From the sequence record OQ885479: DNA of 64,000 nt. One strand, given 5' to 3'. Made by a program: the position numbers and the translations under genes. The first letter of the stretch is position 1; every line of letters starts with the position of its first letter. Below, in pieces: positions 9,354 to 38,415 of this stretch. Under the pieces are notes generated by a model that had not been told where the DNA came from, made no database searches, and was given only the letters and a program-made list of their open reading frames with translations. Source of the stretch: Escherichia phage SUT_E1520.

Positions 9354-9423
9354 TTGGCAGAGTGGTTATGCACCTCCTTCATACGGAGCGACTACAGTGG
9401 TTCAAATCCACTACTAACTACCA
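9348..9423 (+). tRNA. tRNA with CAU anticodon (third CAU tRNA; Met or Ile2 type)
   Basis: Acceptor AGTTAGT/ACTAACT, loop TTCATAC, T-arm AGTGGTTCAAATCCACT, CCA. Confidence 0.6.
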
Positions 9424-9460
9424 TTAAAAGAGCTAGAGATAGCTAACTTTAGGAGCAGCT

Positions 9461-9655: not shown

Positions 9656-9697
9656 AGAATAAATAGCTGAGCCAAATTCTAACATCGGGGAGATCTA

Positions 9698-10066
9698 ATG
9701 AAAGCATATCAAAATCTTAAATCTGGCGTAATTAACCTTGTTCATGAAAATCAGATTATTCAGCTATACTCCGACAACGGTGAACTTAAACAGAAAGTTC
9801 TAGTTGAAGATCTAGAAGGTATCACACCACAATTCGATCCCGAAGCCTTCCGTGAAGTCAAAGTGGAAGTCGCCCCTCAAATCGAAGGTGGTCAGCACCT
9901 AAATGTCAATGTGTTAAGCTGTGATCAGCTTTTGGATGCGCAGAAACATCCTGAAAAATATCCTCAGTTGACCATCCGTGTCTCTGGCTACGCTGTTCGA
10001 TTTAACGCACTGACTCGTGAACAACAGAACGACGTTATTAGTCGTACATTTACTCAGGCGATGTAA
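9698..10066 (+). CDS. autonomous glycyl-radical cofactor (GrcA/YfiD-like; pyruvate formate-lyase C-terminal domain homolog)
   Basis: C-terminus [31 protein letters not shown] matches the glycyl-radical motif RVSGY of PflB/GrcA. Confidence 0.8.
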
Positions 10067-10147
10067 TGGGGTTTGGGTACGATTTCTCCGAACTACGTGA
10101 GGTAGTCGAGCAAACTCCGTTTATCTCCCAAGTTTTAGGAGAAATGT

Positions 10148-10462
10148 GTGGATCGAGCATTAAGACGCCATCACCGGCAACGTGTGAAGAACAACCGCAA
10201 GAAGTATTGGACAGTCTTTCCACATGAAGAAAGCCCTAAGCGGTTAGGTATTATCACTACTACTCCTTGCATCTGTTCTTGTTGGATGTGCGGGAACCCT
10301 CGCAAATATTATAAGAATAGTAAAGCAGGCATGAAAATTTCGGAGATTAGGAAAATGGAAGCAATGATTATGGGCATCTCAAATGATGAATTTGATGGCT
10401 TTGTAGGATTCGGAGAAGGAATCAGCTCAGGCTATTCCGAAGATGAACGCCCCGATCTGTAA
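10148..10462 (+). CDS. hypothetical basic protein (GTG start per track; a competing 53-aa frame starts at 10066)
   Basis: ORF track; overlapping alternative frame leaves the true gene uncertain. Confidence 0.35.
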   Translation: MDRALRRHHRQRVKNNRKKYWTVFPHEESPKRLGIITTTPCICSCWMCGNPRKYYKNSKAGMKISEIRKMEAMIMGISNDEFDGFVGFGEGISSGYSEDERPDL

Positions 10463-25603: not shown

Positions 25604-26217
25604 TGTTTACACAACAGCCTATTCAAGTAGTACCAGACCATGAACTGAACACATGGGATTACAGCTTTAAAGATTTAACTGCTACTGTACAATTCAAATC
25701 TATGAAGCTAACATTTGCACACACCGACCTTAAAGCCTGTAAAGATCTTGAGAGTAAGCTCGAAGATGCTCGTAAGATTTTTGGCACGGCTCGCATCCCG
25801 GCTGATAACCTGATTAATGCACTAATAGACGCTGGTTATAAACTCGTGAAGACTGAGGTGAACCGTCCTAGTGCTCCAGTAACTATTCGAGATTCATGGC
25901 CGTCCGGACCAATCGCAATGCTGAATAACTCCGATAAAAGATTAATGTCGGATATGCACAATATTCCTTGTGGGGGTGTGGTAAGTAGTACGCAGTCATA
26001 TAAGTTTGTGGAAGATTACGGCCCATCTGTACAGCTAAAACATACTCAAGAAGCTTTTGAATCTGATATGCGAAGCGTAGCACCTGCGGATGCTGGAGTT
26101 TCTAGGAGTTCTGTTTGTACTATTCATTTTAATAATCCTGGTAAACATGGAAGTTTAGAGGATGCTATTATGGAGGCGTTGGGAGCTGCTATTAATGAAG
26201 ATAAGAGAGGTAGCTAA
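25603..26217 (+). CDS. hypothetical protein
   Basis: ORF track. Confidence 0.55.
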   Translation: MFTQQPIQVVPDHELNTWDYSFKDLTATVQFKSMKLTFAHTDLKACKDLESKLEDARKIFGTARIPADNLINALIDAGYKLVKTEVNRPSAPVTIRDSWPSGPIAMLNNSDKRLMSDMHNIPCGGVVSSTQSYKFVEDYGPSVQLKHTQEAFESDMRSVAPADAGVSRSSVCTIHFNNPGKHGSLEDAIMEALGAAINEDKRGS

Positions 26218-26294
26218 TCCTCTAATACATGAGCCTCTACGGAGGCTCTAAAATAAAAAGAAGGTCATCCAGACCTTAAAAATGGGAGATAATA

Positions 26295-27179
26295 ATGTAT
26301 AACTTTAAAGATAAACTAAGACAAAACGCTGGTAAAACAAAACCTAAGAAAAATAATAGTGTTCCTGATGCTAAAGTACTTCCATTTCCTGAACTAACCC
26401 AGGAAGAAAAAGATAAACTAGCATTTATGTTCGATGCACTTATAGGATTAAGTGGACGACTGTACTCCACCCTTAGTATTAATGAGAAACGTCTAGTAGA
26501 GATGTTTTGTAAACGTTACCAAGTTACTTCAAAAGGCAACGCCCATAAAGAAGGTGAAAAAGCATTCACAGTCTTAAAAATCAGTGCATATGCACATCGT
26601 TTCTTAGTTTATGGGTTACAGATGGAATACTTCACCATTCCACCATTTAAGTCATTTCACATCTTTGAAGATGAACGAATGAATATTGATGATCTCTATG
26701 GAGATACATACAAGTACTCAGGAAGTCCATTCCATGATGCATTAAGAAGCTATCCTACTAGTTATTTACCAGTTAGGGCATCACAGGGTAAAGCTAGCAT
26801 CTTTGCGGTATACTCAGGATCTAAAGCATCGGATCTAGAAACTTATATATTTAAAGAGCGTAAATCTGTGCTTCCAGATGAAGCATTATATAATAATCCA
26901 TTGCTTCCAGAAAAAGAACCCGAGAAAATTGATGTAACCCCACCAACCCCATCTGATTCTCAATATTTAATCTACGAAAAACAAGTTAAGCTATCTCTAG
27001 AGATTGGTTTAGTCACACCGCTTGCTGCAGCATTCATCAATAGATACCTAGAAATTCCTAACGAGTTCCACACACGTTATAATACGAACATTCAGATAAC
27101 AGATGAACTAATTGCACTAGCAAAAGATACACCTACTGACACTGAGGCGTACCAAAAAGCATACCAAGAGTTACTGTAA
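26295..27179 (+). CDS. hypothetical protein (294 aa)
   Basis: ORF track; SD GGGAGATAATA. Confidence 0.6.
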   Translation: MYNFKDKLRQNAGKTKPKKNNSVPDAKVLPFPELTQEEKDKLAFMFDALIGLSGRLYSTLSINEKRLVEMFCKRYQVTSKGNAHKEGEKAFTVLKISAYAHRFLVYGLQMEYFTIPPFKSFHIFEDERMNIDDLYGDTYKYSGSPFHDALRSYPTSYLPVRASQGKASIFAVYSGSKASDLETYIFKERKSVLPDEALYNNPLLPEKEPEKIDVTPPTPSDSQYLIYEKQVKLSLEIGLVTPLAAAFINRYLEIPNEFHTRYNTNIQITDELIALAKDTPTDTEAYQKAYQELL

Positions 27180-27235
27180 GATCCTGCATGTCTCGGTGCA
27201 CAATACCTGTACCGAGACTCAAATACAAACTCTCG

Positions 27236-27264
27236 TTGACAGATAGCTAAATGTATGTTATCAT
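27236..27264 (+). promoter_or_regulatory. near-consensus sigma70 promoter firing into the repeat-rich non-coding region
   Basis: TTGACA-N17-TATCAT; no ORF for more than 1.5 kb downstream. Confidence 0.45.
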
Positions 27265-27600
27265 AACTCTATGAGTTAATAGAATTAACCATTTAGAGTT
27301 GCCACACAGAAGGTGTGGTGGTTCAGTAATTTAAAATTACTAACTTGTAGCGGAGGATACGGAGCGACAGGACAAGTTAATAAGTAATTTAATATAAATT
27401 GCTAGAAACATCACGAGACCTTCTGGCGGGGGCAAAGCTCTATATGAGAACCCTGGGGGATCTTATATTTAAAATAAAAGTAAAACTTTTGACCACATAA
27501 TTTACATTCAAGATGATACACCTGTTGCCGCTCATCTGCTAGGATGGCACAACACTTTCCTAGAAACTCCAGAGTTCTCACGAAATACTCACTCTTTCTA

Positions 27601-27672
27601 GGGCGGTTCTCCTAAGTTTCTAGGAACATATACTAGGCGGTTTAATACAGGGCGGTTATGGGGAGGGCGGTT
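27601..27672 (+). repeat. four copies of GGGCGGTT interleaved with repeated TTTCTAGGAACATATA units
   Basis: Direct repeats seen in the sequence. Confidence 0.6.
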
Positions 27673-27715
27673 ATTTCTAGGAGACATTTTTTGAAAACAC
27701 ATTTCCAGAAATTAC

Positions 27716-28316
27716 TGTCGGATTTGCACATTGTGTTTCTAGAAATTTATGGTCGGATTTGCACAATTGCCTAAGTTTTTAGGAACATATAATCTCTTGA
27801 AAATGGCAGCATTATTTCGGGCCGAAGGCCCATGATTGCCTGAGTTTTTAGAGCCACAGAAACTTTCACTTGTCAAGCTATTTTGCCCCATTTAGCTAAT
27901 AAGATTTTACTTTATCTGCACTAATCTCAAATTAACCCAAATCTTCTCAACTCTTCCCCAAAATCCCCGCAAATCAGGTGCTACGCACCAAACATGCGCC
28001 CCTCTCGCAGTTCCCTCAAATTTTTCTCGATCTCTCAACTTCTCCCCAAACTCTTACAATCACACACTCTCCAATCGAAGTCACAAAAATCTTGTCGGAT
28101 TCGCACAAATAAACCCATGTCGGATTTGCACATATTCTAGTTAATTCCACAGGATTGATGCGCAGCATCGGATTGCTGGAGTTTTTAGGAAAATTCATTG
28201 TCGGATCCGCACATTATAAAAATTTTTCGGGTCGGATTTGCACACTACCAAAAATTGTCGGATTCGCACATACACGCCCACGCGTAATCCATGGGGGCAA
28301 ATGTCGGATTTGCACA
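27716..28316 (+). repeat. iteron-like array: eight copies of the 15-mer TGTCGGATYYGCACA
   Basis: Copies near 27716, 27751, 28093, 28118, 28199, 28230, 28256 and 28302, irregularly spaced. Confidence 0.7.
27880..28080 (+). other. G-depleted, C/A-rich tract of about 200 bp on the plus strand
   Basis: Strong strand compositional asymmetry, almost no G. Confidence 0.6.
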
Positions 28317-28349
28317 AAAGCGCAGGGCAATTGCCCTGCTTGCCTGAAT

Positions 28350-28545
28350 ACGAATGATAATGAGAATCATTCTCATTTAAAAAGCGGAATGTGAATGATA
28401 ATAATTCGCATTTAAGAATGGAAGTGAGAATTATTCAGGAAGTGAAACGATTCTCATTTAAAAAGTGGAATGATTATTAGTTAGATAGTGAAATGCGAAT
28501 GATACTGATTCGTATTTAAGAATGGAAGTGAGAAACACTATTATT
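28350..28545 (+). repeat. tandem degenerate repeats carrying a Fur-box-like 19-bp perfect palindrome AATGAGAATCATTCTCATT
   Basis: Palindrome at 28359-28377; repeated GAATGATAAT... and ATTCGCATTTAAGAATGGAAGTGAGAA units. Confidence 0.6.
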
Positions 28546-28660
28546 TAAGTTATCCACAGACTTATCAACAGCACGATTTGACTTGACAAAATCCTAGCCA
28601 TTTTGAGGCGTTATCAACAGACTTATCAACAGCTTATCCTACTGTATAAATATACAGTAT
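28541..28660 (+). repeat. left arm of an imperfect inverted repeat of about 110 bp, with DnaA box TTATCCACA and LexA-like box CTGTATAAATATACAG
   Basis: Reverse complement of 32386-32500 aligns along most of its length; DnaA box at 28550-28558, LexA-like box at 28642-28657. Confidence 0.6.
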
Positions 28661-28854
28661 TCCTATGCAGTGAATAATTCTAATATACAGCTAAAACGCT
28701 CTCAAACGCATTCTAACGCGTTTAATTTTGTTGGGGATACTAAAACACGGGTAAAATTGGAGGAGGCTTAGAAATTAGTTAGCGAGCTAACGATCACACA
28801 AGGCGACACGTAACACCCTAATCATTAGCAGGCTAACCATCGCGGGCGCGGTTA

Positions 28855-28873
28855 AATGAGAATCATTCTCATT
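28855..28873 (+). promoter_or_regulatory. second copy of the 19-bp palindrome AATGAGAATCATTCTCATT (Fur-box-like)
   Basis: Exact repeat of the palindrome at 28359-28377. Confidence 0.5.
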
Positions 28874-28915
28874 TGAAAATTGGGGGCACTCCCTGATAGT
28901 TGCGCCCCGTGATTA

Positions 28916-29110
28916 TTAGTCTGGTAGTCGATGCGTGATTTTTTCCTCCTCCCCGTAGGAATCCACCAAATACTGATAATAACCATCGTGATCATAAATC
29001 ACTTTATCATATTCGCCACGCTCGACCGCTTGCCGATTCTCCGGCGTATCTGGCACGTAAAAAACATCAACCATTGTACTGATCTTGGTTACAACTATTT
29101 TATTACTCAT
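28916..29110 (-). CDS. hypothetical protein (64 aa), last gene of the minus-strand operon
   Basis: ORF track; SD-like sequence upstream on the minus strand. Confidence 0.45.
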   Translation of the reverse strand: MSNKIVVTKISTMVDVFYVPDTPENRQAVERGEYDKVIYDHDGYYQYLVDSYGEEEKITHRLPD

Positions 29111-29211
29111 AATAACTCCCTAGTAAATATATTTTTGCCAATAGTGGCGAATGTTATCGCCACCAGCGGAATCATTAGCGGCCTTACTATTACCAACGAA
29201 AATATATAATC

Positions 29212-29571
29212 TCATTGCGCCACCTTTCGAAACGCTGTTTCAATACTATCCGCAGTGGATTGAATATATGCGCCTTTCATTATCAGGCGCTCGGTACATA
29301 CCTTGCGGAAAATATTAATAAAATCATCTTCATTTTCTGCAATTAATGCTTCACCCATAACCTGAACGTCACAAGATGCAAAGGTCAAAAATTGAAACGC
29401 TAGTTCACGGGCAACGACCGCATTAATTTTATAATGTGCCTTGCCCTCATAAATATTAATAACGCCCTTATAAGCTGGGGAAAGCTGATTTAAATAGTTT
29501 GCTAATAATGCTGGGCGGCAATTAGCAACAAAACGATTGCCTTCATAAATTATCATTTGCATAGCTCCCAA
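29212..29571 (-). CDS. hypothetical protein (TTG start per track; first ATG at 29562)
   Basis: ORF track. Confidence 0.5.
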   Translation of the reverse strand: MGAMQMIIYEGNRFVANCRPALLANYLNQLSPAYKGVINIYEGKAHYKINAVVARELAFQFLTFASCDVQVMGEALIAENEDDFINIFRKVCTERLIMKGAYIQSTADSIETAFRKVAQ

Positions 29572-29675
29572 ATAGTTCCGCCGATGATCATTAGCTGACT
29601 AATAATTATCAGAATAAAACCAATTGAAGGCAGGACGCCCCAAAAACGAAAAGCCGTTTTAATTTGCTGAATCAT
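29553..29675 (-). CDS. small membrane peptide (40 aa)
   Basis: Overlapping-coupled with its neighbours; single TM segment; below the track cutoff. Confidence 0.3.
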   Translation of the reverse strand: MIQQIKTAFRFWGVLPSIGFILIIISQLMIIGGTIWELCK

Positions 29676-29802
29676 TTGTTAGCCTCCCGATTAGATAGCC
29701 AGATAAAAGCATAAAGATCCCCAATGAAATGGGGTCATTTTTAAATAAGGTGGCGATAAAACCGCCAGCCATTGCAAGGATAATAACAATAACGCTTTTC
29801 AT
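29659..29802 (-). CDS. small membrane peptide (47 aa)
   Basis: ATGA overlap with the upstream stop; TM segment; below the track cutoff. Confidence 0.3.
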   Translation of the reverse strand: MKSVIVIILAMAGGFIATLFKNDPISLGIFMLLSGYLIGRLTNDSAN

Positions 29803-30011
29803 AGTACCCCACGAAACGCAGCGTAAAAGGTGGCAAAGTGTTTAACTGTTTCAGCTATCACGTTGCCGCGCTTATCAAATTTTTTCTCGGTAACACGAAA
29901 GGCATTTTTGTTACGTGCTACATATTCGATTTTACAATCTTCCCGCTCGAACGTGTTAACATCCACCAGCTTAAAGCCTTTCGAACGTGCAAGGGAAACG
30001 TTGCGGATCAT
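29799..30011 (-). CDS. hypothetical protein (70 aa)
   Basis: ORF track; SD AAGGAGA upstream. Confidence 0.45.
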   Translation of the reverse strand: MIRNVSLARSKGFKLVDVNTFEREDCKIEYVARNKNAFRVTEKKFDKRGNVIAETVKHFATFYAAFRGVL

Positions 30012-30013
30012 TT

Positions 30014-30163
30014 TTATTCTCCTTTACTAGTCATGCAGCCCAGCAGATAAGAAAACGCAGCAATGCCAGCGCCAATAATAACGGCGTGAACGCCAAAAGC
30101 TATTGCAAACAACGATAAAATAGCGCCCAAGATACCCGCCAGAATAGCTCGAAAAATAACCAT
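30014..30163 (-). CDS. small membrane peptide (49 aa)
   Basis: SD GGAGAAT upstream; TM segment; below the track cutoff. Confidence 0.3.
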   Translation of the reverse strand: MVIFRAILAGILGAILSLFAIAFGVHAVIIGAGIAAFSYLLGCMTSKGE

Positions 30164-30213
30164 TTTTTTTTATTCTCCTAGTCAGTGAGGGATATAATAT
30201 CCCCCGTTACTAA

Positions 30214-30444
30214 TTACATTAAAACAATTTTTGCAGCTTGTTTTTTAGTACAGTGTTCCGCTTTCAGCGTGTCCAGCAAAAAGCCCGCCGTTTGCTGATC
30301 GATTTTATCGGCGTTGTATAGTTCTTGGATGGTGTTATAAGTTTTAGCAATGCCGAACTCCTGCACCATTTCATGAATAATGGCGCGGTTAGATACCCAG
30401 CCTTGAGCGGTGAACAGATGAGTAGCAGAAGAGTAAGCAACCAT
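30214..30444 (-). CDS. hypothetical protein (76 aa)
   Basis: ORF track. Confidence 0.45.
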   Translation of the reverse strand: MVAYSSATHLFTAQGWVSNRAIIHEMVQEFGIAKTYNTIQELYNADKIDQQTAGFLLDTLKAEHCTKKQAAKIVLM

Positions 30445-30548
30445 TTTAAGCCTCCAAATTTTTGGGAAATTTTTAATCCACCGTTTTGGTGTAAAAGCAT
30501 TATAACAAAAAAGGCCACCATAAAAGGCGACCTTTACAAAACTTTACA

Positions 30549-31043
30549 TTAAACTACCTGTAAGGATTCAACATTGAAACATCGTTTTAATTCATCATGT
30601 AAAACAGCGTATTCCTCCCATCGGGTATTATCAGGAATATAAACAAGCTGTTTTAATCGATTTGCGTATATTACCGCTTTATTATCAATTATTTCGACGC
30701 CACCATATTTAATAATTAATTTCATGACGGAATTAATAGGATCGCCGCCGTTTACATATGTGCCGGATTTACTTAATTGATAATGATAAAGGCCAGCATA
30801 TACGTTTTCATTTTCATACCATTCGCCAGTTTCTTCGTCTTCATAGCCATCGCTACCAAAACGAGAAGCATTATCAATAGCCATTTCATGAGCGAAAGCG
30901 TCCAGATCCGTACCAGCAGGAACAAAGTATTCCTCGGTATTCCCTTCCCCGCAATAGCCAGTATGACAATCGACTAAAATGATCATATCATGTTTAGCCG
31001 TGCTCACTTCCCCTAGCGAGAAGCCGTATTTTTCCTCAGCCAT
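30549..31043 (-). CDS. hypothetical protein (164 aa)
   Basis: ORF track; SD AGGAGG upstream. Confidence 0.55.
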   Translation of the reverse strand: MAEEKYGFSLGEVSTAKHDMIILVDCHTGYCGEGNTEEYFVPAGTDLDAFAHEMAIDNASRFGSDGYEDEETGEWYENENVYAGLYHYQLSKSGTYVNGGDPINSVMKLIIKYGGVEIIDNKAVIYANRLKQLVYIPDNTRWEEYAVLHDELKRCFNVESLQVV

Positions 31044-31108
31044 TTATTAGCCTCCTATTAATTAACAAGGGAGTAGTAAAGCGGGGAAATAATCCCCGCT
31101 AAATATTA

Positions 31109-32119
31109 TTACTCGCTTTCGGTGTTAGTGGTAAAAGTAGAAATATCAATACCTTTCACCATTTCATCAATCATTTCAGCGATGTTAAAACTTTGCACCA
31201 TTTCCAGCATTGCCGCTTCCATAGCCGCCCCCGCTACCGCTTTCGCCTTTTGGTTAGTCGGTGCGTACTGGTCAACCGCTACACTCAGCAGGTTAGCGAT
31301 CACTACACGACCAATAGGTGTATCGATATAACCTTTGATCATGAATGGTGCTTTTTTAGCCGCTACTTTCGTAATTTGAGTTAATGCAATTTTACCCGCC
31401 TCCAGTTTTGCAGCATTTACAACAGCGGATTTATTGGCGGCAACGATGTTAGCAATCTTGGTCATGGTGTTTTTTCCTTTGTTTTCAGTAGTTTGAGTGT
31501 TAACGCTTTGAGTGTTAGAATTTACAGCATGGTTTTCTACGCTGTCAATAATCTGATCTTCATCTTTCCAGAAAGAAAAACCAGCGCTTTCTATATCCCC
31601 ATCATAAATATATGGGTATAGCTCCCGTGGTAACAAAAAATTACCGTCGCCATCAAAAGCCATTATACCGGTATATTGAGATCCGTCGTTATCCGGCTTA
31701 TGCCATCCAGCGGGTAAATACTTCCAGATAACATCTAAAAATCCCTCAATGCTAGAAAGTCCATTTATCAGATCAAGTCCAATAAGCTCAAAACTATTTA
31801 TATTAAATGATTGACGGCCTGAATTGCTATGATACGCAACAATATTATTACCCTGCGCAACAATAAAATCGGTATCCGGCCCCGCTCCCCTGCCTGTAAA
31901 GATATGGCAATCCCGATTATATAAAACTAGCGTTGCCCCTTGTCTATATAAGGGTAGAAAACTATCCATATCATAAGCGTCATAATCATCAAAAAAGTTT
32001 TGATGAATAGTTTCAATCTTGTTAATAAAATGTTTAATGCTGGTTGACTTGCTACCGTCTAGCAGGTTGCGCAATGCACCCTTTAATACGGTGGCATTAT
32101 CAGGTTTATACAGCCTCAT
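31109..32119 (-). CDS. hypothetical protein (336 aa), first gene of the minus-strand operon
   Basis: ORF track; SD GAGGAGG upstream. Confidence 0.6.
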   Translation of the reverse strand: MRLYKPDNATVLKGALRNLLDGSKSTSIKHFINKIETIHQNFFDDYDAYDMDSFLPLYRQGATLVLYNRDCHIFTGRGAGPDTDFIVAQGNNIVAYHSNSGRQSFNINSFELIGLDLINGLSSIEGFLDVIWKYLPAGWHKPDNDGSQYTGIMAFDGDGNFLLPRELYPYIYDGDIESAGFSFWKDEDQIIDSVENHAVNSNTQSVNTQTTENKGKNTMTKIANIVAANKSAVVNAAKLEAGKIALTQITKVAAKKAPFMIKGYIDTPIGRVVIANLLSVAVDQYAPTNQKAKAVAGAAMEAAMLEMVQSFNIAEMIDEMVKGIDISTFTTNTESE

Positions 32120-32385
32120 TTGTTAGGCCTCCTCGTTAATCGGTGAGTGAATGATAAAGGTAAATTTCTAGCATAGGCAAATATTATTTTACCTTTTTAT
32201 TTTCCTTGCCTAGCGCCTATTTTTATGATAACCGCGCAGCGGTGCAATAAAGAGCAAACCACGGCGAAGCCACCAGGCCGACGCATTGAGGCTTTACTTT
32301 AATATTACCTTACAGCGTTTAGCTCGTTAGAATGCGATTTAAGCCGCTTAAAATTGATTGCAGTTGTTAACACTACCTTTTTACC

Positions 32386-32500
32386 CTGTATAAATATACA
32401 GTAGGATAACCTGTGGATAAGTCTGTGTAAAAGTCCTTATATCGCCGCCTATCGTGTCAAGTCAAAAAGTGCTGTGGATAACTTTGTGTATAACTTAAAT
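32386..32500 (+). repeat. right arm of the inverted repeat, with LexA-like box and two TGTGGATAA DnaA boxes
   Basis: LexA-like box at 32386-32401; DnaA boxes at 32412-32420 and 32473-32481. Confidence 0.6.
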
Positions 32501-32830
32501 GATAGTGGTTCTCACTTAGCTAGATGATTTCTTATAGTTATTATTTCTCATTAATTTATATGTATATTATATATCATGAAATAGTTAGTTGGCTAATGAG
32601 ATTTTTCCGTGATTAATAGTCTGCTAATAATTCAGGTCGTTACAATCCACCAGCATGATTATCATTCTAGCAATTATTAGTCTGCTATCTTTCCGATGCA
32701 TACTAACAAATAAAAGTCAATTAATTTATTTCATAAAATAAGTAGTTATCCACTGGAAAATAAAAGTCAAGTGGATAACTAGGAAAATTTCATTTTTGCT
32801 TTTGGGGATAAGTTATCAACAAGGCTAGAA
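32500..32830 (+). other. AT-rich region with further DnaA-box-like 9-mers; origin-like or host-factor binding region
   Basis: TTATCCACT near 32746, GTGGATAAC near 32771, TTATCAACA near 32813; very AT-rich 32520-32720. Confidence 0.4.
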
Positions 32831-33225
32831 TGCGCCTAAAACGCTCCAGAACGCAATAAAGTTTTTAGCCATCCCATCATAAGGGGATAAGCCGTTTATC
32901 GTTACCACGAGCTTTTTAGATTTTGTCAAGTAGGGCAAAGCAAATATAAATGAAAAAATTACTTGCCTATTTGCTTTATTTTGTGGTATTCGCGCGCCCG
33001 TTTCTTTTAATTTTAGGCCGTCGCCGCACGGTGTCCGGTGAGTTTTACCTTTACATTTCTTTACAAAAATAAGGTTGCGCCATTTTCGGGAATCCCCTAT
33101 TATTTATCTCGTAGGGCGGCAATGACGAACTACACGGCGGGAAGTTTACCGCCACGCTCTTTAAAAATTGGGTACATCTTAAAGCCTATCGGCGGTAAAC
33201 TTATTCATTATAAGGAATCGACGAT

Positions 33226-33429
33226 ATGAAACAAACGCTTTTGATCACTGGCAAGCCTATTAAGGCACTAGATAGCAAAACAAAAAATTTGTTGACAGTA
33301 GCTCAAAGATCAGTAAGATATAGATTCACGCAGTACAAGAAAGGTCGCCAGCAAGGTCTGGAAATGATCTGGCGAAATATTATGATTGACCTAAAAGAAA
33401 ATCATAAAAAATTGCAAAAAATTGTTTGA
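33226..33429 (+). CDS. hypothetical basic protein (67 aa), flanked by a 25-bp inverted repeat
   Basis: ORF track; inverted repeat arms at 33169-33193 and 33437-33461. Confidence 0.3.
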   Translation: MKQTLLITGKPIKALDSKTKNLLTVAQRSVRYRFTQYKKGRQQGLEMIWRNIMIDLKENHKKLQKIV

Positions 33430-33659
33430 CAACCTAGCCGATAGGTTTTAAGATGTACCCAGTTCGATAAGAGCGATAACTTGATAAAATTTGACGGTCG
33501 GTGCTTACCATAATGCATCCCGCCCCCTAACGGGATATAGCGGCCTACGTGGAGTTCTTTAAAATTGATTATATTGGCGAGCGGATTGTTACTTATTACC
33601 TGCTGTTACTTTCTAGCAGGTAATGCGGAACAATCCCCAAATAACTAGGAGTTTATATT

Positions 33660-33911
33660 ATGCAAAACGTTATTACCGCGCCGAAAGTTGGTCAATCCGT
33701 CTTCATTCCTTTCGTTACTAAAACGGATGAATTAACCGGAAAGGCCGAACGTATTAAAGGTGCGGCGCTTATGCCGTTCGATACAATCGACGCGGTATAC
33801 GCTGAAAATGAACGTAGTAACAACGGCAAGCCCGTTTTTAGCGTTCGCGTTAAATCCGGCGATGTTGTAAAGGTTGTTCAACGCAACGAAAAATGGGAAG
33901 CTGTATTGTAA
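33660..33911 (+). CDS. pre-early protein (hypothetical)
   Basis: ORF track; SD TAGGAG; 10-bp-stem hairpin upstream at 33595-33624. Confidence 0.5.
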   Translation: MQNVITAPKVGQSVFIPFVTKTDELTGKAERIKGAALMPFDTIDAVYAENERSNNGKPVFSVRVKSGDVVKVVQRNEKWEAVL

Positions 33912-34007
33912 ATTAGTGTTAACTTTATATCCCCTTATTTCAGGGGGATATAACGATTAACATTAAGTTAATCTAATCCCTTAAATTAAACTAATAGGAG
34001 TTACATC

Positions 34008-34415
34008 ATGACTAACGCTAAAACCGCAAAATTCGCATGGAATGAAGAAAACACTCAGAAAGCTGTTTCCATGTATCAACAGTTAATTAATGAAAACGGT
34101 TTAGATTTCGCAAATAGCGACGGTTTAAAAGAGATTGCAAAAGCAGTGGGCGCGGCTTCTCCCGTATCCGTTCGGTCAAAATTGACCAGCGCAAAAGCAT
34201 ATCAAAAAAGCGATAAGCCTCGCAAAGTTGGCGGCGGTAGTTCAATCCGCAAAGCTCATTATGTACGCGTTATTGCAAAACACGCTATCGATTCCGGCAT
34301 TATCAAAGATGCCGATGATCTGGCAAGCCTTGAAAGTGCAAAACTTGAAACGCTGGACGCAGTAGCGCAATTGTTAGGCGTTGCCGATGAAGTAAAACAA
34401 GCCGCAGGCGAATAA
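34008..34415 (+). CDS. A2-like pre-early protein (putative DNA-binding)
   Basis: 135 aa, immediately upstream of A1; assignment by position and size only. Confidence 0.4.
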   Translation: MTNAKTAKFAWNEENTQKAVSMYQQLINENGLDFANSDGLKEIAKAVGAASPVSVRSKLTSAKAYQKSDKPRKVGGGSSIRKAHYVRVIAKHAIDSGIIKDADDLASLESAKLETLDAVAQLLGVADEVKQAAGE

Positions 34416-34507
34416 TAGTTATACCTTGCCCCCTTTTTTAGTGAGGGGGCAATAATATAACTGTTTAGCGATAGTTATTTTCTTCCCTTAAATCAGGAGT
34501 TTTTAAA

Positions 34508-34705
34508 ATGATCTTTTATCCTACTGAATCATTAATTCTAGGCTTGTTTATTATGGCGGCCTCGTTATTGTTCGCTTATTTTCAAAATGATTTAGATTCG
34601 TATTATTTTAAACGTAAATCTAAGTTAGCAAAGCGTTTAGGTCTTATTTGTTTTATTGCCGCCGTTGCTTGTGGTGTTAGTTCTAGCCTTATGCCTTTAA
34701 ATTAA
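34508..34705 (+). CDS. small membrane protein
   Basis: ORF track; two hydrophobic segments. Confidence 0.45.
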   Translation: MIFYPTESLILGLFIMAASLLFAYFQNDLDSYYFKRKSKLAKRLGLICFIAAVACGVSSSLMPLN

Positions 34706-34795
34706 TGTTGCAAATTATAACGCCTATTATTCGAGGCGTTATATTTGGCAATATTGCCGTTATTAATCTAATCCCTTTAATGGAGTTTTATTATC

Positions 34796-36460
34796 ATGAT
34801 TATTTCCGCAGAAAAACAAACCGTTATCCTGAAAATGGCCGCTGACTTTAATTTCTATGGTAAACGTCTGCGCGCTACTAAACTGGAAGTCTGCGACGAT
34901 ATATCAAAAGCGGTCTACGATACAACGAAACACTCCACCGCCATTTGTGATTGGTTGGAAGCAAATAAACCAGCGAAACCGAAAGCGGCGAAAGTAGCAA
35001 AAGCCATTAAAAACGACGAGCGCCCAGAAGCGGCGGGGGTTGTTTCTAGCACGGTTGAACAGTGGGAAGTAAAACAAGGCAAACGCTTTATTATTACATC
35101 GATTCAGAATAATACTTTCCCGCATAAAAACTTTTTGGCCTCACTTGAACAATATGCCAAATTTATCGGCGCTGATTTGCTCGTTTCTAAGTATATTTAT
35201 AATAAAAACGGTTTTCAAAATGGGGAAGGTGCGGATGGAATCAAATATGATTCCGCGTTTGATAAATATATTTGCAGCAAAAACGTGTTTTTAAATAACC
35301 GCCGTTTCGCTTTCATGGCTGAAATTAATGTTTTGCCAACCGCAGATTATCCGCTTTCTGGATTCGCAGAAACTGCAACGGCTTTAAATATTGAAGGTCT
35401 GGCAATTGGTCACGCTAAAATCACCGCTGAAAGTGTGCCAGCTTTAAAAGGTGAAGTAGTGCGCCGTATGTATTCAACCGGAACGGCAACGCTCAAAAAC
35501 TACATTCAGCAGAAAGCAGGACAAAAGGCCGAGGCGCTGCATAACTTCGGTGCGCTTATTGTTGAGTTCGACGACGACGGGGAATTTTTTGTACGCCAGC
35601 TTGAAACGATGGACGAAAGCGGGGTGTTTTATGATCTGAACGTTTGCGCTACTCCTGCCGGATGCTATGAAACATCGGGGCATGTTTTAGGCTTGCAGTA
35701 TGGCGATATTCACGCCGAAAAATTAGATGATGATTGTGCCGTTGCGTCATGGGCTGGCGAGAATAGTTTGCTTGATATTCTTAAACCAAAATATCAGCTT
35801 ATTCATGACGTGCATGATTTTACATCGCGCAATCATCATAACCGTGCATCCGGTGTATTCCTAGCGAAACAGTATGCCGCCGGACGTGATAAAGTTCTGG
35901 ATGATCTTATCGATACGGGGCGCGTGCTGGAATCAATGGAACGTGATTTTAGTCAAACAATCATCGTAGAATCGAATCACGATTTGGCGCTATCCCGCTG
36001 GCTTGATGATCGTAATGCTAACATTAAAGACGATCCCGCCAACGCCGAACTATATCACCGCCTAAATGCTGCAATTTACGCGGCAATCGGTGAGCATGAC
36101 GATACTTTCAACGTGCTAGATTATGCGTTGCGCAAGGTTGCAGGTTGTGAGTTTAACGCCATTTTCCTAACCACTGACCAATCTTTCAAGATTGCAGGTA
36201 TTGAATGCGGCGTACACGGTCACAACGGCATTAACGGCAGCCGTGGCAACCCGAAACAATTTAAGAAATTGGGCAAGTTAAACACGGGGCATACGCATAC
36301 CGCCAGCATTTACGGCGGCGTATACACCGCTGGCGTAGCTGGTAGTCTGGATATGGGTTACAACGTTGGCGCGTCAAGCTGGACGCAGACGCATTTAATT
36401 ACCTATGCAAACGGTCAGCGCACTTTGATTGACTTTAAAAACGGTAAATTCTTTGCGTAA
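34796..36460 (+). CDS. A1: A1-like pre-early protein, calcineurin/Mre11-like metallophosphoesterase (probable DNase)
   Basis: 554 aa; motifs GDIHAE, HDFTSRNHHN and GHTHTAS. Confidence 0.7.
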   Translation: MIISAEKQTVILKMAADFNFYGKRLRATKLEVCDDISKAVYDTTKHSTAICDWLEANKPAKPKAAKVAKAIKNDERPEAAGVVSSTVEQWEVKQGKRFIITSIQNNTFPHKNFLASLEQYAKFIGADLLVSKYIYNKNGFQNGEGADGIKYDSAFDKYICSKNVFLNNRRFAFMAEINVLPTADYPLSGFAETATALNIEGLAIGHAKITAESVPALKGEVVRRMYSTGTATLKNYIQQKAGQKAEALHNFGALIVEFDDDGEFFVRQLETMDESGVFYDLNVCATPAGCYETSGHVLGLQYGDIHAEKLDDDCAVASWAGENSLLDILKPKYQLIHDVHDFTSRNHHNRASGVFLAKQYAAGRDKVLDDLIDTGRVLESMERDFSQTIIVESNHDLALSRWLDDRNANIKDDPANAELYHRLNAAIYAAIGEHDDTFNVLDYALRKVAGCEFNAIFLTTDQSFKIAGIECGVHGHNGINGSRGNPKQFKKLGKLNTGHTHTASIYGGVYTAGVAGSLDMGYNVGASSWTQTHLITYANGQRTLIDFKNGKFFA

Positions 36461-36515
36461 TTAAATTATTTCCCTAGCGGCTTGAAATATAGCCGCTATT
36501 TCAGGAGTCACAAAA

Positions 36516-36773
36516 ATGAAAGTTACATTACCCAAAACACTGGACGAAAAAGTATTCATTTCACCGGATGAAATGGAATCTGATAAAGTTTACAGCTTCG
36601 GGCCTATCCTAGCCGCTAAAACTAATACTGATGGCGTTATTTCCGTAGATTACCGTGATAATGATGTTGTTCCTTTTGATGACGATAGCGCTTTTTATGA
36701 GTGGCTAAGTGATAATAATCTACCCGTAAACGGTGAATTAACGCCGTACCAGATGCAGATTATTATCAAATAA
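36516..36773 (+). CDS. pre-early protein (hypothetical)
   Basis: ORF track. Confidence 0.5.
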   Translation: MKVTLPKTLDEKVFISPDEMESDKVYSFGPILAAKTNTDGVISVDYRDNDVVPFDDDSAFYEWLSDNNLPVNGELTPYQMQIIIK

Positions 36774-36811
36774 TTTAAATCCATTATTAAACTAATTGGG
36801 GTTTTATAAAT

Positions 36812-37204
36812 ATGAAAAAGCAAAATATTCCATTCGATCGCGCTCAGTCTTCCATTGTTCTGGTTTATTCTAATGGTGAACGTTATCACGTCGAGGCGTG
36901 GCACGTTATTGATGAATTGTTAGATTTCAATGATGCGATGCAGGTTACAACATTTGCATATATGCAAGGCAAACTAACAAGCCATATTAAAGCAAAAGGC
37001 GTTTATATTGACACGGTGAAACAAGAAACGATTATCATCGACGCAGTAAAATCCGGCCTAGCCTTTGCAGTTGTCGCGCCTTGCCTCGCTTGCCTTGATG
37101 ATCAGCTAGCGAGCGCAAAGGTATATACCTGCGCGGGTATTCGTTCCCATGTATCAGGTGAGGATATTAGTTTTATTGCTGATGCGTTGGCTTATGGTCT
37201 TTAA
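36812..37204 (+). CDS. pre-early protein (hypothetical)
   Basis: ORF track. Confidence 0.5.
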   Translation: MKKQNIPFDRAQSSIVLVYSNGERYHVEAWHVIDELLDFNDAMQVTTFAYMQGKLTSHIKAKGVYIDTVKQETIIIDAVKSGLAFAVVAPCLACLDDQLASAKVYTCAGIRSHVSGEDISFIADALAYGL

Positions 37205-37283
37205 TAGTTGATTTATTATTACCCGCTTATAAATAGCGGGTAATGCTGGATAAACTAAATCCCTTTAATGGAGAACGTAACAA

Positions 37284-38018
37284 ATGAATAAAGCTATTAT
37301 GAATATTTCCCGTAATTTCCCGCATATTTCCCGCGTCATGATTTGGGATTTAGACGGCACTATCATTAATTCTTTCCATCGTGTAGCGCCTTGCTTTGAT
37401 AGTGAGGGCAATTTAGATTTAAATAAGTATAAAAATGAAGCCTGCAAACATCATTTAATAATGCAAGATACTTTATTGCCATTGGTTGAATATATGCGCC
37501 AATGTATGAATGATGCAAATACTTTAAACATTATTTGCACCGCTCGACTAATGAGCAAGTCGGACTATTATTATTTGCGTAAACAAGGGTTGCGCGGTCG
37601 TGGTGATAGTAATATCCGTGTATTTTCCCGCGATACACTACACAAATATTTTGAAGCTGATAAAGTTAGCGAGATATACCACAGCAAAGACGCCATTTAT
37701 AAATCGTATTATTTTGAATTATTTAAACAATTATATCCAAACGCTGACTTTACAATGATTGACGATCATAAAGGCGTGCTATCAGCGGCGGCATCATACG
37801 GATTTAAAACGCTGGACGCGCAAGCCATTAACGATATTCTATCAATCGGCGTTGCATTGATAGGTGAAACCTTTATCGATGAATCTCTCGATGATGATAA
37901 TGATTATCAGTTCCTAGCTGATCGTTTGAAATTATGTTGGGAAAGTATGACCGAGGAAGAACGCGCAGAATATAGTTGCAGCCCGCAACAATATATTGAG
38001 AAATTAAAAGTTGCGTAA
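37284..38018 (+). CDS. dmp: 5-prime-deoxyribonucleotidase, HAD-superfamily phosphatase
   Basis: 244 aa; HAD motif I DLDGT near the N-terminus and a later DD motif. Confidence 0.7.
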   Translation: MNKAIMNISRNFPHISRVMIWDLDGTIINSFHRVAPCFDSEGNLDLNKYKNEACKHHLIMQDTLLPLVEYMRQCMNDANTLNIICTARLMSKSDYYYLRKQGLRGRGDSNIRVFSRDTLHKYFEADKVSEIYHSKDAIYKSYYFELFKQLYPNADFTMIDDHKGVLSAAASYGFKTLDAQAINDILSIGVALIGETFIDESLDDDNDYQFLADRLKLCWESMTEEERAEYSCSPQQYIEKLKVA

Positions 38019-38032
38019 TAATTAAAGTTGAA

Positions 38033-38069
38033 ATAGTCACGGTGTGTAATGATAACATGCCGTGACTAT
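38033..38069 (+). terminator. stem-loop after dmp (terminator-like)
   Basis: ATAGTCACGG...CCGTGACTAT hairpin. Confidence 0.45.
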
Positions 38070-38082
38070 TAGCTTGCTAAGT

Positions 38083-38100
38083 ACCGGGCGGTAATGAGAC
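38083..38100 (+). promoter_or_regulatory. third copy (one mismatch) of the Fur-box-like palindrome
   Basis: AATGAGACTCATTCTCAT between dmp and the small-membrane-protein operon. Confidence 0.45.
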
Positions 38101-38169
38101 TCATTCTCATCTGGGGAGCCACTGGACACACCTCCATGTGTAATCTTATGAAATTTGACAAAAGTCGAA

Positions 38170-38415
38170 TTAGCGCATAGAAGGGTCATCAAACCTGTGT
38201 TCTGGTCTGAACTCCCGGAATCTCTTCCGCGACGCCCGAGATCCATCCGACCACTCTCGCTCAAACTCCGCACGTTTCTCGTCAAACTTCCGCTCCCTTT
38301 CCGCAATCTCCCGCGTCACTCCCGCAATATATTCCCGATGCTTATTGATTGCCGCAGTCGTCCCGAAAACTCCCGCGAGTATCCCGATAATAAAAGCAAT
38401 TATAATACTAAACAT
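38170..38415 (-). CDS. small membrane protein with a charged C-terminal tail (81 aa)
   Basis: ORF track; last gene of a translationally coupled minus-strand operon. Confidence 0.45.
   Translation of the reverse strand: MFSIIIAFIIGILAGVFGTTAAINKHREYIAGVTREIAERERKFDEKRAEFEREWSDGSRASRKRFREFRPEHRFDDPSMR

What the first reader, a model, noticed from the sequence alone, without database searches (positions are those of the whole stretch)
27880..28080. About 200 bp of G-depleted, C/A-rich sequence
The plus strand here is almost devoid of G, a strong local strand asymmetry in an otherwise AT-balanced region. C-rich, G-poor RNA is the classic Rho utilisation (rut) signature, so a transcript from the consensus promoter at 27236 would be subject to Rho-dependent termination. 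Such a tract could also mark a strand-specific protein-binding site or structural signal near the repeat boundary.
Basis: seen in the sequence. Interest (0 to 1): 0.45.

Follow-up and report, generated by a model that had tools for sequence, protein, structure and literature searches.

The report
G-poor tract at T5 terminal-repeat end
A 200-bp non-coding stretch almost lacking G on one strand is real, lies 29 bp inside the right end of the long terminal repeat of a T5-like phage, keeps its composition across the phage family, and by sequence criteria looks like a loading site for the transcription terminator Rho, though its role is untested.

Summary
Window 27880-28080 has 16 G against 69 C. 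It has the lowest GC skew in the 64 kb and the two longest G-free runs.

The window is a T5-like phage (Tequintavirus) in reverse orientation. The tract corresponds to T5 9908-10110, inside the non-coding "Repeat Region 3 / injection stop signal" region. It starts 29 bp inside the right end of the long terminal repeat (window 27851). T5 and three other phage records place that end at the same homologous base.

The tract is non-coding and variable in sequence. Even so, all 30 distinct homologues stay G-poor, with 250 C-runs against 4 G-runs. Equivalent tracts occur in Klebsiella and Vibrio relatives.

It lies about 600 nt downstream of a family-conserved sigma-70 promoter that first specifies a long-hairpin RNA. 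It is the largest C>G bubble on either strand of the window, is predicted unstructured, and is followed by a covarying hairpin. A Rho-dependent terminator is therefore the best-supported reading.

It also shows ~10-bp phasing, shorter than the Rho subunit spacing. That suggests an additional duplex-DNA role at the repeat end, in packaging or injection stop. No transcript or functional data exist.

The parts
27880..28080 (+). G-depleted, C-rich non-coding tract, equal to T5 AY587007 10110-9908. It has two G-free halves (27919-27968 and 28030-28076) around a small hairpin, and it contains T5 'direct repeat A' copies 2 and 3.
   Evidence: Composition and ranking. Mapping to T5. Conservation of composition. 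Non-coding status. ~10-bp phasing.
27977..27989 (+). Central hairpin GGTGC-tac-GCACC, which holds most of the tract's G residues.
   Evidence: The stem is conserved while the loop varies from 3 to 5 nt, and phiR2-01 has a compensatory GGCG/CGCC version. It is also predicted by the single-sequence fold.
27236..27264 (+). Sigma-70 promoter-like site, TTGACA-17-TATCAT with TG upstream of the -10, pointing toward the tract.
   Evidence: It matches 11 of 12 consensus positions. The core is invariant in a 7-sequence, 3-genus alignment. A homologous promoter sits ~330 nt outside the terminal repeat in Vibrio phage Pontus.
27271..27480 (+). Candidate long-hairpin RNA, the 5' part of the presumed transcript.
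   Evidence: MFE is -64.4 kcal/mol with z = -6.5. The same architecture appears in unalignable homologues, including Klebsiella and Vibrio phages, with z from -2.0 to -6.8, and the + strand is always the more stable.
27819..27832 (.). GC hairpin GGGCC-gaa-GGCCC, 19 bp outside the terminal repeat.
   Evidence: It is conserved, and Klebsiella phages carry a different stem (CACGGTG-tgt-CACCGTG) at the same position.
27844..27859 (.). Terminus motif GTTTTTAG|AGCCACAG. The right end of the long terminal repeat falls at 27851, and the repeat interior lies at higher coordinates.
   Evidence: T5 position 10139 maps to window 27851. The Sw2 PhageTerm end, the phiR2-01 repeat end and the start of the SIY1lw record all fall on the same homologous base. 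The motif is conserved in Klebsiella phages.
27851..38128 (.). Inferred terminal repeat of this phage (one collapsed copy), carrying the pre-early genes A2 (34008-34415), A1 (34796-36460) and dmp (37284-38018).
   Evidence: The extent is inferred by homology to the T5 repeat ends.
27711..27765 (+). Two copies of the 15-bp DRD repeat (GTCGGATTTGCACA core), outside the terminal repeat.
   Evidence: Found. They correspond to the T5 annotation 'direct repeat D' copies 7 and 8.
28088..28316 (+). Array of six DRD repeats inside the terminal repeat, directly after the tract.
   Evidence: Found. They correspond to T5 'direct repeat D' copies 1-6.
28155..28171 (+). Covarying 7-bp hairpin with a GCA loop, ~75 nt downstream of the tract, followed by GGATTGCTGGAGTTTTTAGG.
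   Evidence: Four of six pairs show both-sided compensatory changes in 5-7 of 14 sequences. The variants are listed, where the non-Watson-Crick positions are T.G on the + strand.
28319..28323 (+). Site homologous to the T5 major single-chain interruption (7.9 % / 99.6 % nick), CACAAAA|GCGC, on the same strand as the G-poor sequence.
   Evidence: Annotated in AY587007 and AY543070 and mapped here. The BF23 paper places the nicks on the minus strand.

Best explanation
The tract is a conserved non-coding element of T5-like phages (Demerecviridae). It occupies base pairs ~30-230 inside the right end of the long terminal repeat, within what the T5 literature calls Repeat Region 3 or the injection-stop-signal region.

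Its defining property is strand-specific: the strand that reads 5'->3' from the repeat end inward avoids G and is rich in C-runs. The most likely mechanism is at the RNA level. A family-conserved sigma-70 promoter (window 27236) lies just outside the repeat and fires into it. It first produces a long-hairpin RNA (27271-27480). Any polymerase that continues then synthesises ~200 nt of untranslated, unstructured, C-rich, G-poor RNA. That RNA is an ideal loading site for host Rho.

Rho would release the transcript in or just after the tract, near the conserved hairpin at 28155-28171. Release would come before the polymerase crosses the DRD array, the nick site and the DnaA boxes, and before it runs antisense into the convergent pre-early genes.

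What is shown: the composition, its conservation, the promoter consensus and its conservation, the lack of ORF and of RNA structure, and the position relative to the repeat end. What is inferred: that the promoter is active, that transcripts reach the tract, that Rho acts there, and that this is what selection maintains. The additional ~10-bp phasing of C-rich and A/T-rich segments is not accounted for by Rho. It probably reflects a second, duplex-DNA role at the repeat end.
For: The tract is the largest-area C>G bubble on either strand of the 64 kb (length 304, area 5937 %.bp). In Nadiras et al. 2018, all templates tested above 78 bp or 700 %.bp terminated with Rho in vitro.

The tract holds the #1 and #3 C-minus-G 78-nt windows. 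YC density is 0.235 against 0.084, and (YC)N9-13 chains up to n = 6 are present.

The RNA is predicted unstructured: MFE -15 kcal/mol over 201 nt, and RNAalifold leaves the tract unpaired in 14 homologues.

The tract is non-coding: variation shows no 3-nt periodicity and indels are 1-2 nt.

The constraint is strand-specific: 250 C>=3 runs against 4 G>=3 runs in 30 distinct tracts. G stays at 14-20 per 200 nt although 159 of 201 columns vary, and substitutions are asymmetric.

The promoter is conserved and co-oriented across four genera, and the order promoter -> repeat end -> C-rich tract recurs even in Vibrio phage Pontus, whose A1 protein is only 31 % identical.

The structured RNA directly after the promoter, more stable on the + strand in every lineage, argues that the promoter makes a real transcript.

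The covarying hairpin ~75 nt downstream has its wobble positions on the + strand.

The layout, C-rich / hairpin / C-rich, is the same as lambda tR1 rutA-boxB-rutB.
Against: There is no transcript, 3'-end or Rho-inhibition evidence, and none was found in the T5 papers read.

The hairpin RNA has a weak terminator-like tail at about 27440-27480, so read-through to the tract may be low.

The ~10-bp phasing ranks #1 of all windows for C and is conserved as far as Vibrio phages. It is shorter than the 11-15-nt YC spacing suited to Rho, so it points to a duplex-DNA property.

In the right-hand copy of the repeat the tract sits at the physical DNA end with no promoter upstream, so any function there cannot be transcriptional.

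Any C-rich untranslated sequence scores as rut-like, so competence does not prove function.
Confidence: 0.4

Rival explanations
1. Duplex-DNA architectural element at the terminal-repeat end. The phased C-run / A-T alternation makes the 200 bp next to the cut site intrinsically bent or easy to wrap. Together with the flanking DRD binding-site arrays, it would help assemble a nucleoprotein complex. That complex could be terminase recognising and cutting the repeat end and starting packaging, or the complex that halts DNA transfer after the first step.
For: The tract starts 29 bp from a cut site conserved to the base in four phages. It lies between DRD arrays on both sides of the cut. A 9.75-10.0-bp periodicity is the top spectral peak in window, T5, Sw2, phiR2-01, two Klebsiella phages and Vibrio phage Pontus, and ranks #1 for C and #3 for A/T among all windows of the 64 kb. 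No tandem sequence unit exists, so the phasing is in composition or shape. Part of the tract falls within the 'injection stop signal' feature of AY543070. From general knowledge, bent DNA plus repeated small-terminase sites is typical of pac and cos sites such as lambda cosB and SPP1 pacL.
Against: Bending does not require all C-runs to be on one strand, yet the count is 250 against 4. In Pontus the tract is ~195 bp from the annotated repeat end, not adjacent to it. No protein binding, bending or packaging data exist for this region. The literature's candidates for the injection stop signal are the DnaA-box inverted repeats and DRE repeats further inside.
Confidence: 0.3
2. Single-stranded-DNA role. 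In virion DNA the G-poor strand is the nicked strand. In the right-hand repeat copy, a ~469-nt fragment runs from the terminus to the 99.6 % nick and begins with this tract. Loss or resection of that fragment would expose a G-rich, C-poor 3' tail. Because each strand is essentially a three-letter sequence, neither can fold on itself. That would favour annealing or strand invasion between repeat copies during circle or concatemer formation and recombination-primed replication.
For: The nick lies on the same strand, 240 nt downstream of the tract. The DRD-plus-GCGCAGG nick motif is conserved as far as Klebsiella and Vibrio phages. The C-rich strand has very little predicted structure. The constraint is strand-specific.
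Against: From my recollection of the older T5 literature, which I did not check here, nick-less T5 mutants are viable. The G-rich strand still folds moderately (-41 kcal/mol, z = -1.6). This reading explains neither the 10-bp phasing nor the conserved promoter. It has no direct evidence.
Confidence: 0.12
3. G-quadruplex or i-motif forming element on the G-rich strand at the genome end, resembling a telomere.
For: Klebsiella phages carry a canonical motif, CCCCCTGCCCCCATCATCCCCGAATTGCCCC, with a G4Hunter score of -2.24. The G-rich strand runs 5'->3' toward the physical right end.
Against: There is no canonical four-run motif in the window phage, in T5 or in Pontus. G4Hunter scores are only -1.44, -1.2 and -1.3, and 113 windows in the 64 kb reach |1.2|. 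Quadruplex potential is therefore not the conserved property.
Confidence: 0.04
4. No selected function: a decayed direct-repeat array, or a mutational strand bias such as deamination of a frequently single-stranded end.
For: The tract contains a degenerate 88-bp internal repeat (family D12). The sequence itself is poorly conserved, with 79 % of columns variable.
Against: The composition is held within narrow limits (G 14-20, C 69-78) despite sequence turnover. It recurs in sequences that no longer align, in Klebsiella and Vibrio phages. Deamination would lower G and raise A on this strand, but it cannot enrich C to 34 % or create the 10-bp phasing. The adjacent DRD array and terminus block show symmetric substitution patterns.
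Confidence: 0.08

Closest known systems
[quoted passage not shown] 1987; Wang et al. 2005 annotation in AY587007; Davison bioRxiv 10.1101/866236)
   Same: It is the same locus by homology. The tract equals AY587007 9908-10110. It lies between direct repeat D copies 6 and 7, contains direct repeat A copies 2 and 3, and overlaps the iss feature of AY543070.
   Different: The descriptions I could read catalogue repeats, palindromes and DnaA boxes. They do not mention the strand asymmetry, the 10-bp phasing, the promoter or the hairpin RNA, and the text contains no hit for 'G-rich' or 'C-rich'. The literature's iss candidates are the DnaA-box inverted repeats and DRE repeats 400-700 bp further inside the repeat.
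Rho utilisation sites, e.g. lambda tR1 (rutA - boxB hairpin - rutB)
   Same: Both are untranslated, C-rich, G-poor and unstructured RNA downstream of a promoter. Both have two C-rich halves around a small hairpin. They share words, such as TCAAATTAACCCA against TCAAATTAAACCA, and CTCTTACA. The C>G bubble lies far above the experimental thresholds.
   Different: They are not homologous: the local alignment is not significant (p = 0.056). The tract is much longer, at 200 nt against about 55 nt. It has a 10-nt phasing not known for rut sites. Termination has not been demonstrated.
Phage T7 concatemer-junction flank (CCTAAAG short-repeat array, ATCTGTT pause signal, leftward E. coli promoter A0)
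   Same: T7 also has a strand-asymmetric, C/A-rich, G-poor tract directly at a terminal-repeat boundary: nt 161-260 have 9 G and 35 C, skew -0.59. It also has a host-type promoter just outside the repeat pointing into it. From general knowledge, T7 needs a transcription pause signal at this junction for concatemer processing.
   Different: T7 belongs to an unrelated family and there is no sequence similarity. The T7 tract lies outside the repeat and has a 13-bp period rather than 10 bp. Its relevant polymerase is the phage enzyme, which is not subject to Rho.
Terminase recognition regions (lambda cosB, SPP1 pacL/pacR)
   Same: Both combine a sequence-specific cut site, arrays of short repeats on both sides, and a helically phased (bent) segment next to the cut.
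   Different: This is a resemblance from general knowledge only. No terminase binding data exist for T5-like phages, and strict one-strand C bias is not a known feature of cos or pac sites.

Membership tests
Rho-dependent terminator / rut site | An uninterrupted C>G bubble of at least ~78 nt in the transcript (non-template strand) | tested here: met
   The bubble spans window starts 27801-28104, with area 5937 %.bp and maximum %C-%G of 38.5. It is the largest on either strand of the window. The criteria come from PMC6144790.
Rho-dependent terminator / rut site | Richness in YC dimers with spacing suitable for Rho subunits, (YC)N9-13 | tested here: met
   YC frequency is 0.235 against 0.084 window-wide, and chains up to n = 6 are present. 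The dominant periodicity, however, is ~10 nt rather than 11-15 nt.
Rho-dependent terminator / rut site | Little RNA secondary structure | tested here: met
   MFE is -15.2 kcal/mol over 201 nt, with only the small central hairpin. The consensus fold of 14 homologues leaves the tract unpaired.
Rho-dependent terminator / rut site | Transcribed but not translated | tested here: inconclusive
   Untranslated status is supported: there is no conserved ORF, no 3-nt periodicity of variation, and indels are 1-2 nt. Transcription is only inferred, from a conserved consensus promoter 600 nt upstream with no canonical intrinsic terminator in between.
Rho-dependent terminator / rut site | 3' ends downstream that depend on Rho (bicyclomycin-sensitive, or Rho-dependent in vitro) | not testable with these tools
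   This needs Term-seq with and without bicyclomycin, or in vitro transcription with purified Rho.
T5 injection stop signal (iss) | Location in the non-coding right part of the left terminal repeat, at about 8 % of the genome | tested here: met
   The tract equals T5 9908-10110, which is 8.1-8.3 % of 121,752 bp, and it overlaps the iss feature 9140-10149 of AY543070.
T5 injection stop signal (iss) | A cis-acting site at which first-step DNA transfer halts | not testable with these tools
   This is a functional definition. The shear point is usually estimated at about 9618, which is 300-500 bp to the left of the tract in T5 orientation, so the tract may lie beyond the stop point.
Terminase recognition (pac/cos-type) site | Immediate proximity to a sequence-specific genome end | tested here: met
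   The repeat end falls at window 27851 and is the same homologous base in T5, Sw2 (PhageTerm), phiR2-01 and SIY1lw. The tract starts 29 bp inside it.
Terminase recognition (pac/cos-type) site | Helically phased or bent DNA and repeated binding sites flanking the cut | tested here: met
   A ~10-bp phasing is present with p<=0.014 in each lineage and is top-ranked in the window. DRD arrays lie on both sides of the cut. Protein binding itself was not tested.
Terminase recognition (pac/cos-type) site | Required in cis for cutting and packaging; bound by small terminase | not testable with these tools
   This needs genetics or biochemistry.
G-quadruplex / i-motif element | Four or more runs of at least 3 G (or C) separated by short loops, conserved among relatives | tested here: not met
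   There is no canonical motif in the window phage, T5 or Pontus, only in Klebsiella phages. G4Hunter scores are -1.44, -1.2, -1.3 and -2.24.
Known RNA families (Rfam 15) | A match to a curated covariance model | tested here: not met
   There were no matches at E<=1 in window 26000-30000, on either strand.

The most novel reading that the evidence does not exclude
The tract may be one part of a family-wide, transcription-coupled module at the terminal-repeat boundary of T5-like phages. The order is: host-type promoter, long-hairpin RNA, sequence-specific repeat end, phased one-strand C-run tract, DRD array, site-specific nick, DnaA boxes. In this reading, RNA polymerase arriving from outside and being stopped (by Rho) on a bent, protein-wrapped segment right at the repeat end marks or opens the site for terminal-repeat cutting and duplication, or for resumption of DNA transfer. 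The precedent is the pause signal that T7 needs at its concatemer junction. If true, it would give a concrete cis-element to test for two old problems: how 10-kb terminal repeats are generated, and how T5's two-step injection is controlled.
Probability: 0.15. Interest if true: 0.8.

Novelty: new member of a known kind. Interest (0 to 1): 0.5.

Why it matters
T5's two-step DNA injection and the way its ~10-kb terminal repeats are cut and duplicated have been unexplained for decades. The non-coding region involved is usually described only as a thicket of repeats and palindromes.

This analysis picks out a sharply bounded element next to the exact repeat end. It has two measurable, family-wide properties: one-strand G avoidance and 10-bp phasing. 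It is linked to a conserved promoter and a candidate structured RNA.

These properties can be separated by design. One can recode the composition while keeping the phasing, or invert the element. That gives direct experiments to decide whether transcription termination, DNA shape, or both matter at the repeat end. If the tract is merely a Rho terminator, it is an ordinary element in an interesting place.

Tried and rejected
Rfam search of 26000-30000 at E<=1 found nothing.

Coding potential was rejected. Variation shows no 3-nt periodicity, indels are 1-2 nt, and the ATG of the 48-aa + strand ORF is not conserved in T5.

G-quadruplex as the conserved feature was rejected, because only Klebsiella phages have a canonical motif.

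A tandem-repeat origin of the 10-bp signal was rejected, because TRF finds no array.

I first suspected that the second cluster of negative skew at 38.2-39.4 kb marked the other repeat end. It lies over minus-strand genes (ORF148-151 and llp homologues), and the periodic signal at 38171 lies in the ORF151 homologue. Both are ordinary coding effects.

Homology to lambda rut was not significant (p = 0.056).

RNAalifold on the post-promoter hairpin failed because the sequences are too divergent to align. I replaced it with single-sequence folds with shuffles.

Davison's 2015 review could not be retrieved.

A literature search on T5 terminase and packaging signals found nothing specific.

A replication-origin reading (DnaA boxes plus iteron-like repeats) was not pursued. 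According to Davison's preprint, T5 origins map near the genome centre, and the tract is C-rich rather than an AT-rich unwinding element.

Full report
**1. The observation**

Window 27880-28080 contains 57 A, 69 C, 16 G and 59 T. The minimum 200-nt GC skew of the whole 64 kb lies here: -0.65 at 27886, against a mean of +0.07 and sd of 0.13. The next lowest value is -0.47. The two longest G-free runs in the window, 50 nt at 27919 and 47 nt at 28030, are the two halves of the tract.

**2. Where it is**

The tract lies in an ORF-poor stretch (27180-28900) between convergent genes. The stretch is dense in repeats. It is 100 % identical to Escherichia phage SUT_E420 and 99.9 % identical to T5_ev212 and EC148, and more than 500 T5-like phages match it.

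The window is in reverse orientation relative to the T5 reference. A global alignment to AY587007 (88 % identity) maps the tract to T5 10110-9908. Using the detailed T5 annotation, the mapped features are:
- The tract lies between 'direct repeat D' (DRD) copy 6 and copy 7 and contains 'direct repeat A' copies 2 and 3.
- The annotated end of the left terminal repeat (T5 10139) corresponds to window 27851.
- The 7.9 % major nick corresponds to window 28320-28327.

The Moscow record AY543070 labels 9140-10149 as 'injection stop signal' and places the nick on the T5 minus strand. That is the window + strand, between 28319 and 28320 (CACAAAA|GCGC). The G-poor strand is therefore the nicked strand, in line with the BF23 paper.

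The repeat end is precise. The Sw2 end determined by PhageTerm, the phiR2-01 repeat end and the first base of the SIY1lw record all fall on the base homologous to window 27851, inside GTTTTTAG|AGCCACAG. One record, chee130_1, annotates a different end inside the tract. The left end of the repeat maps to window 38128. The tract thus occupies bases ~30-230 from the right end of a ~10.3-kb terminal repeat. In the right-hand copy of virion DNA, that is ~30-230 bases from the physical end of the genome.

**3. Conservation**

The tract region alone matches 442 phage records at 74-100 % identity. A scan of viral contigs with the terminus motif gave 24 genuine T5-like loci, all with skew -0.54 to -0.78 in the following 200 nt. 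The 46 chance matches that could be scored ranged from -0.25 to +0.45.

Among 23 distinct sequences, 159 of 201 tract columns vary. Yet every sequence has 14-20 G and 69-78 C. Substitutions are asymmetric (T>C 0.55 per T against A>G 0.35 per A; A>C 20 against T>G 9). The neighbouring DRD array and terminus block show no such asymmetry. Across 30 distinct tracts there are 250 runs of C>=3 and only 4 of G>=3.

The architecture extends to lineages where the tract no longer aligns:
- Klebsiella Sugarlandvirus phages, whose flanking protein is 40 % identical, have the same order of elements. The terminus motif is followed by a still more extreme C-run tract with skew -0.56.
- Vibrio phage Pontus, whose A1 protein is 31 % identical, has a homologous promoter ~330 nt outside its 8.6-kb repeat. 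A 100-nt tract with 6 G and 33 C lies 200-300 nt inside, flanked by DRD-like repeats. It is followed by a DRD-plus-GCGCAGG motif and DnaA boxes.

The composition, rather than the sequence, is what is maintained.

**4. Anatomy**

The tract is non-coding: variation shows no 3-nt periodicity and indels are mostly 1-2 nt. It consists of two G-free halves around a small hairpin (27977-27989). The hairpin's stem is conserved while its loop varies from 3 to 5 nt, with one compensatory change in phiR2-01.

As RNA, the + strand is almost unstructured (-15 kcal/mol over 201 nt). RNAalifold on 14 diverse homologues leaves the tract unpaired. About 75 nt downstream lies a 7-bp hairpin (28155-28171). Four of its six predicted pairs show both-sided compensatory changes in 5-7 of 14 sequences. 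Its non-Watson-Crick positions are T.G on the + strand.

Upstream, the promoter at 27236 matches 11 of 12 consensus positions with an extended -10, and its core is invariant across three genera. No canonical intrinsic terminator is predicted on the + strand between promoter and tract.

Directly after the promoter, 27271-27480 folds into a long hairpin (-64.4 kcal/mol, z = -6.5). Homologous positions in mutually unalignable lineages, including Klebsiella and Vibrio phages, fold the same way (z from -2.0 to -6.8). The + strand is always more stable than its complement. The promoter's transcript therefore looks real, and its first product is a structured RNA.

**5. Rho criteria**

Nadiras et al. 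2018 identify three main descriptors: uninterrupted C>G bubbles (78-nt window), low structure, and YC dimers with 9-13-nt linkers. In their experiments, all templates with bubbles over 78 bp or over 700 %.bp terminated with Rho in vitro.

The tract is the largest-area bubble on either strand of the window: 304 window starts, 5937 %.bp, maximum 38.5. It holds the #1 and #3 C-minus-G 78-nt windows. Its YC density is 0.235 against 0.084 window-wide, and it contains (YC)N9-13 chains up to six.

Its layout, C-rich / hairpin / C-rich, is that of lambda tR1 rutA-boxB-rutB. The shared words are not statistically significant (p = 0.056). If the tract is transcribed in E. coli, Rho-dependent termination is the expected outcome.

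**6. A second signal**

The tract shows a 9.75-10.0-bp periodicity of A/T against C. This is the top spectral peak in the window phage, T5, Sw2, phiR2-01, two Klebsiella phages and Pontus, with p<=0.014 against shuffles in each. Among all 220-nt windows of the 64 kb, the tract ranks #1 for C periodicity and #3 for A/T.

TRF finds no tandem unit, so this is compositional phasing. The period is shorter than the 11-15-nt spacing suited to Rho subunits, and it equals the DNA helical repeat. Together with the position next to a base-exact cut site and between DRD arrays, this suggests a duplex-DNA role, such as bending or wrapping in a terminase or injection-stop complex.

Bending alone, however, would not force all C-runs onto one strand. 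Neither reading alone explains both signals.

**7. Rejected or weak readings**

- G-quadruplex potential is canonical only in Klebsiella phages.
- Mutational bias cannot enrich C or create the phasing.
- Negative skew and periodicity at 38.2-39.4 kb are coding effects in minus-strand genes.
- Rfam has no match.

**8. Comparison with known systems**

The locus is the known T5 Repeat Region 3 / iss region. The papers I could read describe repeats, palindromes and DnaA boxes. They do not mention the strand asymmetry, the phasing, the promoter or the hairpin RNA.

T7 offers a parallel. Directly next to its terminal repeat, nt 161-260 have 9 G and 35 C, and a leftward E. coli promoter (A0) points into the repeat. 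But that tract lies outside the repeat, has a 13-bp period, and belongs to an unrelated family.

**9. Verdict**

The feature is real, conserved and under strand-specific constraint. The best-supported mechanism is a Rho-loading site terminating the transcript of the conserved promoter (confidence ~0.4). A duplex-DNA architectural role at the repeat end is a serious rival or partner (~0.3). Nothing here is demonstrated experimentally. The decisive experiments are listed in the next-steps section.

Noticed in passing
window 27271-27480 (+): A candidate long-hairpin non-coding RNA lies directly after the conserved promoter (MFE -64.4 kcal/mol, z = -6.5). The same ~130-150-nt hairpin architecture occurs at the homologous position in unalignable T5-like lineages, Klebsiella phages and Vibrio phage Pontus, and is always more stable on the + strand. 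There is no Rfam match, and the papers read do not mention it.
   Followed up: partly
window 28155-28171 (+): A 7-bp hairpin with a GCA loop has its stem wholly replaced between phages (GATGC/GCATC, CGAAC/GTTCG, CGTGC/GCACG) while pairing is kept. Four of six pairs are compensatory in 5-7 of 14 sequences.
   Followed up: partly
window 27819-27851 and 28155-28188: The module 'hairpin + ATTGCYKGAGTTTTTAG' occurs twice. The first copy contains the terminal-repeat cut site and the second lies 330 bp inside the repeat. RNAalifold also pairs the second copy with the 3' part of the tract (CCCCAAACTC...CAATC), but with weak covariation.
   Followed up: partly
window 28352-28551: This stretch has the lowest C count of the whole window (15 C in 200 nt, skew +0.47), in the DRC/DRE repeat region 270 bp from the tract. 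The asymmetry is the opposite way round, so minus-strand (pre-early direction) RNA would be C-rich here. That suggests a possible two-sided termination zone between convergent units. The polarity is not conserved in Vibrio phage Pontus.
   Followed up: partly
L085 (Klebsiella phage Sugarland MG459987.2) record position 10138: The 'repeat region predicted by PhageTerm' ends exactly at CCTGCGC|TTATGTGCGAATCCGACA, which is the motif homologous to the T5 nick site. That is 350 bp inside the conserved T5-type terminus motif (equivalent to record position 10488). The software may have called the nick rather than the true end.
   Followed up: partly
L086 (Vibrio phage Pontus) 480-505; L009 5681-5705; window 28301-28327: A DRD repeat immediately followed by (A)GCGCAGG, the T5 7.9 % nick sequence, is conserved from T5 to Klebsiella and Vibrio phages. 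Site-specific nicking at this spot may therefore be family-wide.
   Followed up: no
window 38171-38415 (-): The strongest ~10-bp A/T periodicity of the window, together with high GC (0.54) and skew -0.39, lies in the 81-aa ORF151 homologue just outside the left end of the repeat (38128). This is probably a coding effect, such as an amphipathic helix or repeated 'tcccg' words, and was not examined further.
   Followed up: partly
L008 (chee130_1, MF431736.1) record position 8717: The annotated left-terminal-repeat end lies inside the tract, ~210 bp from the position found in T5, Sw2, phiR2-01 and SIY1lw. It is likely an imprecise annotation.
   Followed up: no
window 27510-27560 (+): The block caagatgatacacctgttgccgctcatctgctaggatggcacaacactttc is almost invariant in Tequintavirus and Epseptimavirus, while its surroundings are highly variable. 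It contains a 9-codon ATG...TAG ORF without an obvious ribosome-binding site.
   Followed up: no
L009 4850-5050 (Klebsiella phage Boggle_ER46): Klebsiella phages carry a second C-rich, G-poor tract (skew -0.5) outside the repeat, between the GGGCGGTTAT repeats and the outer DRD array. It has its own internal repeats but no 10-bp phasing.
   Followed up: partly
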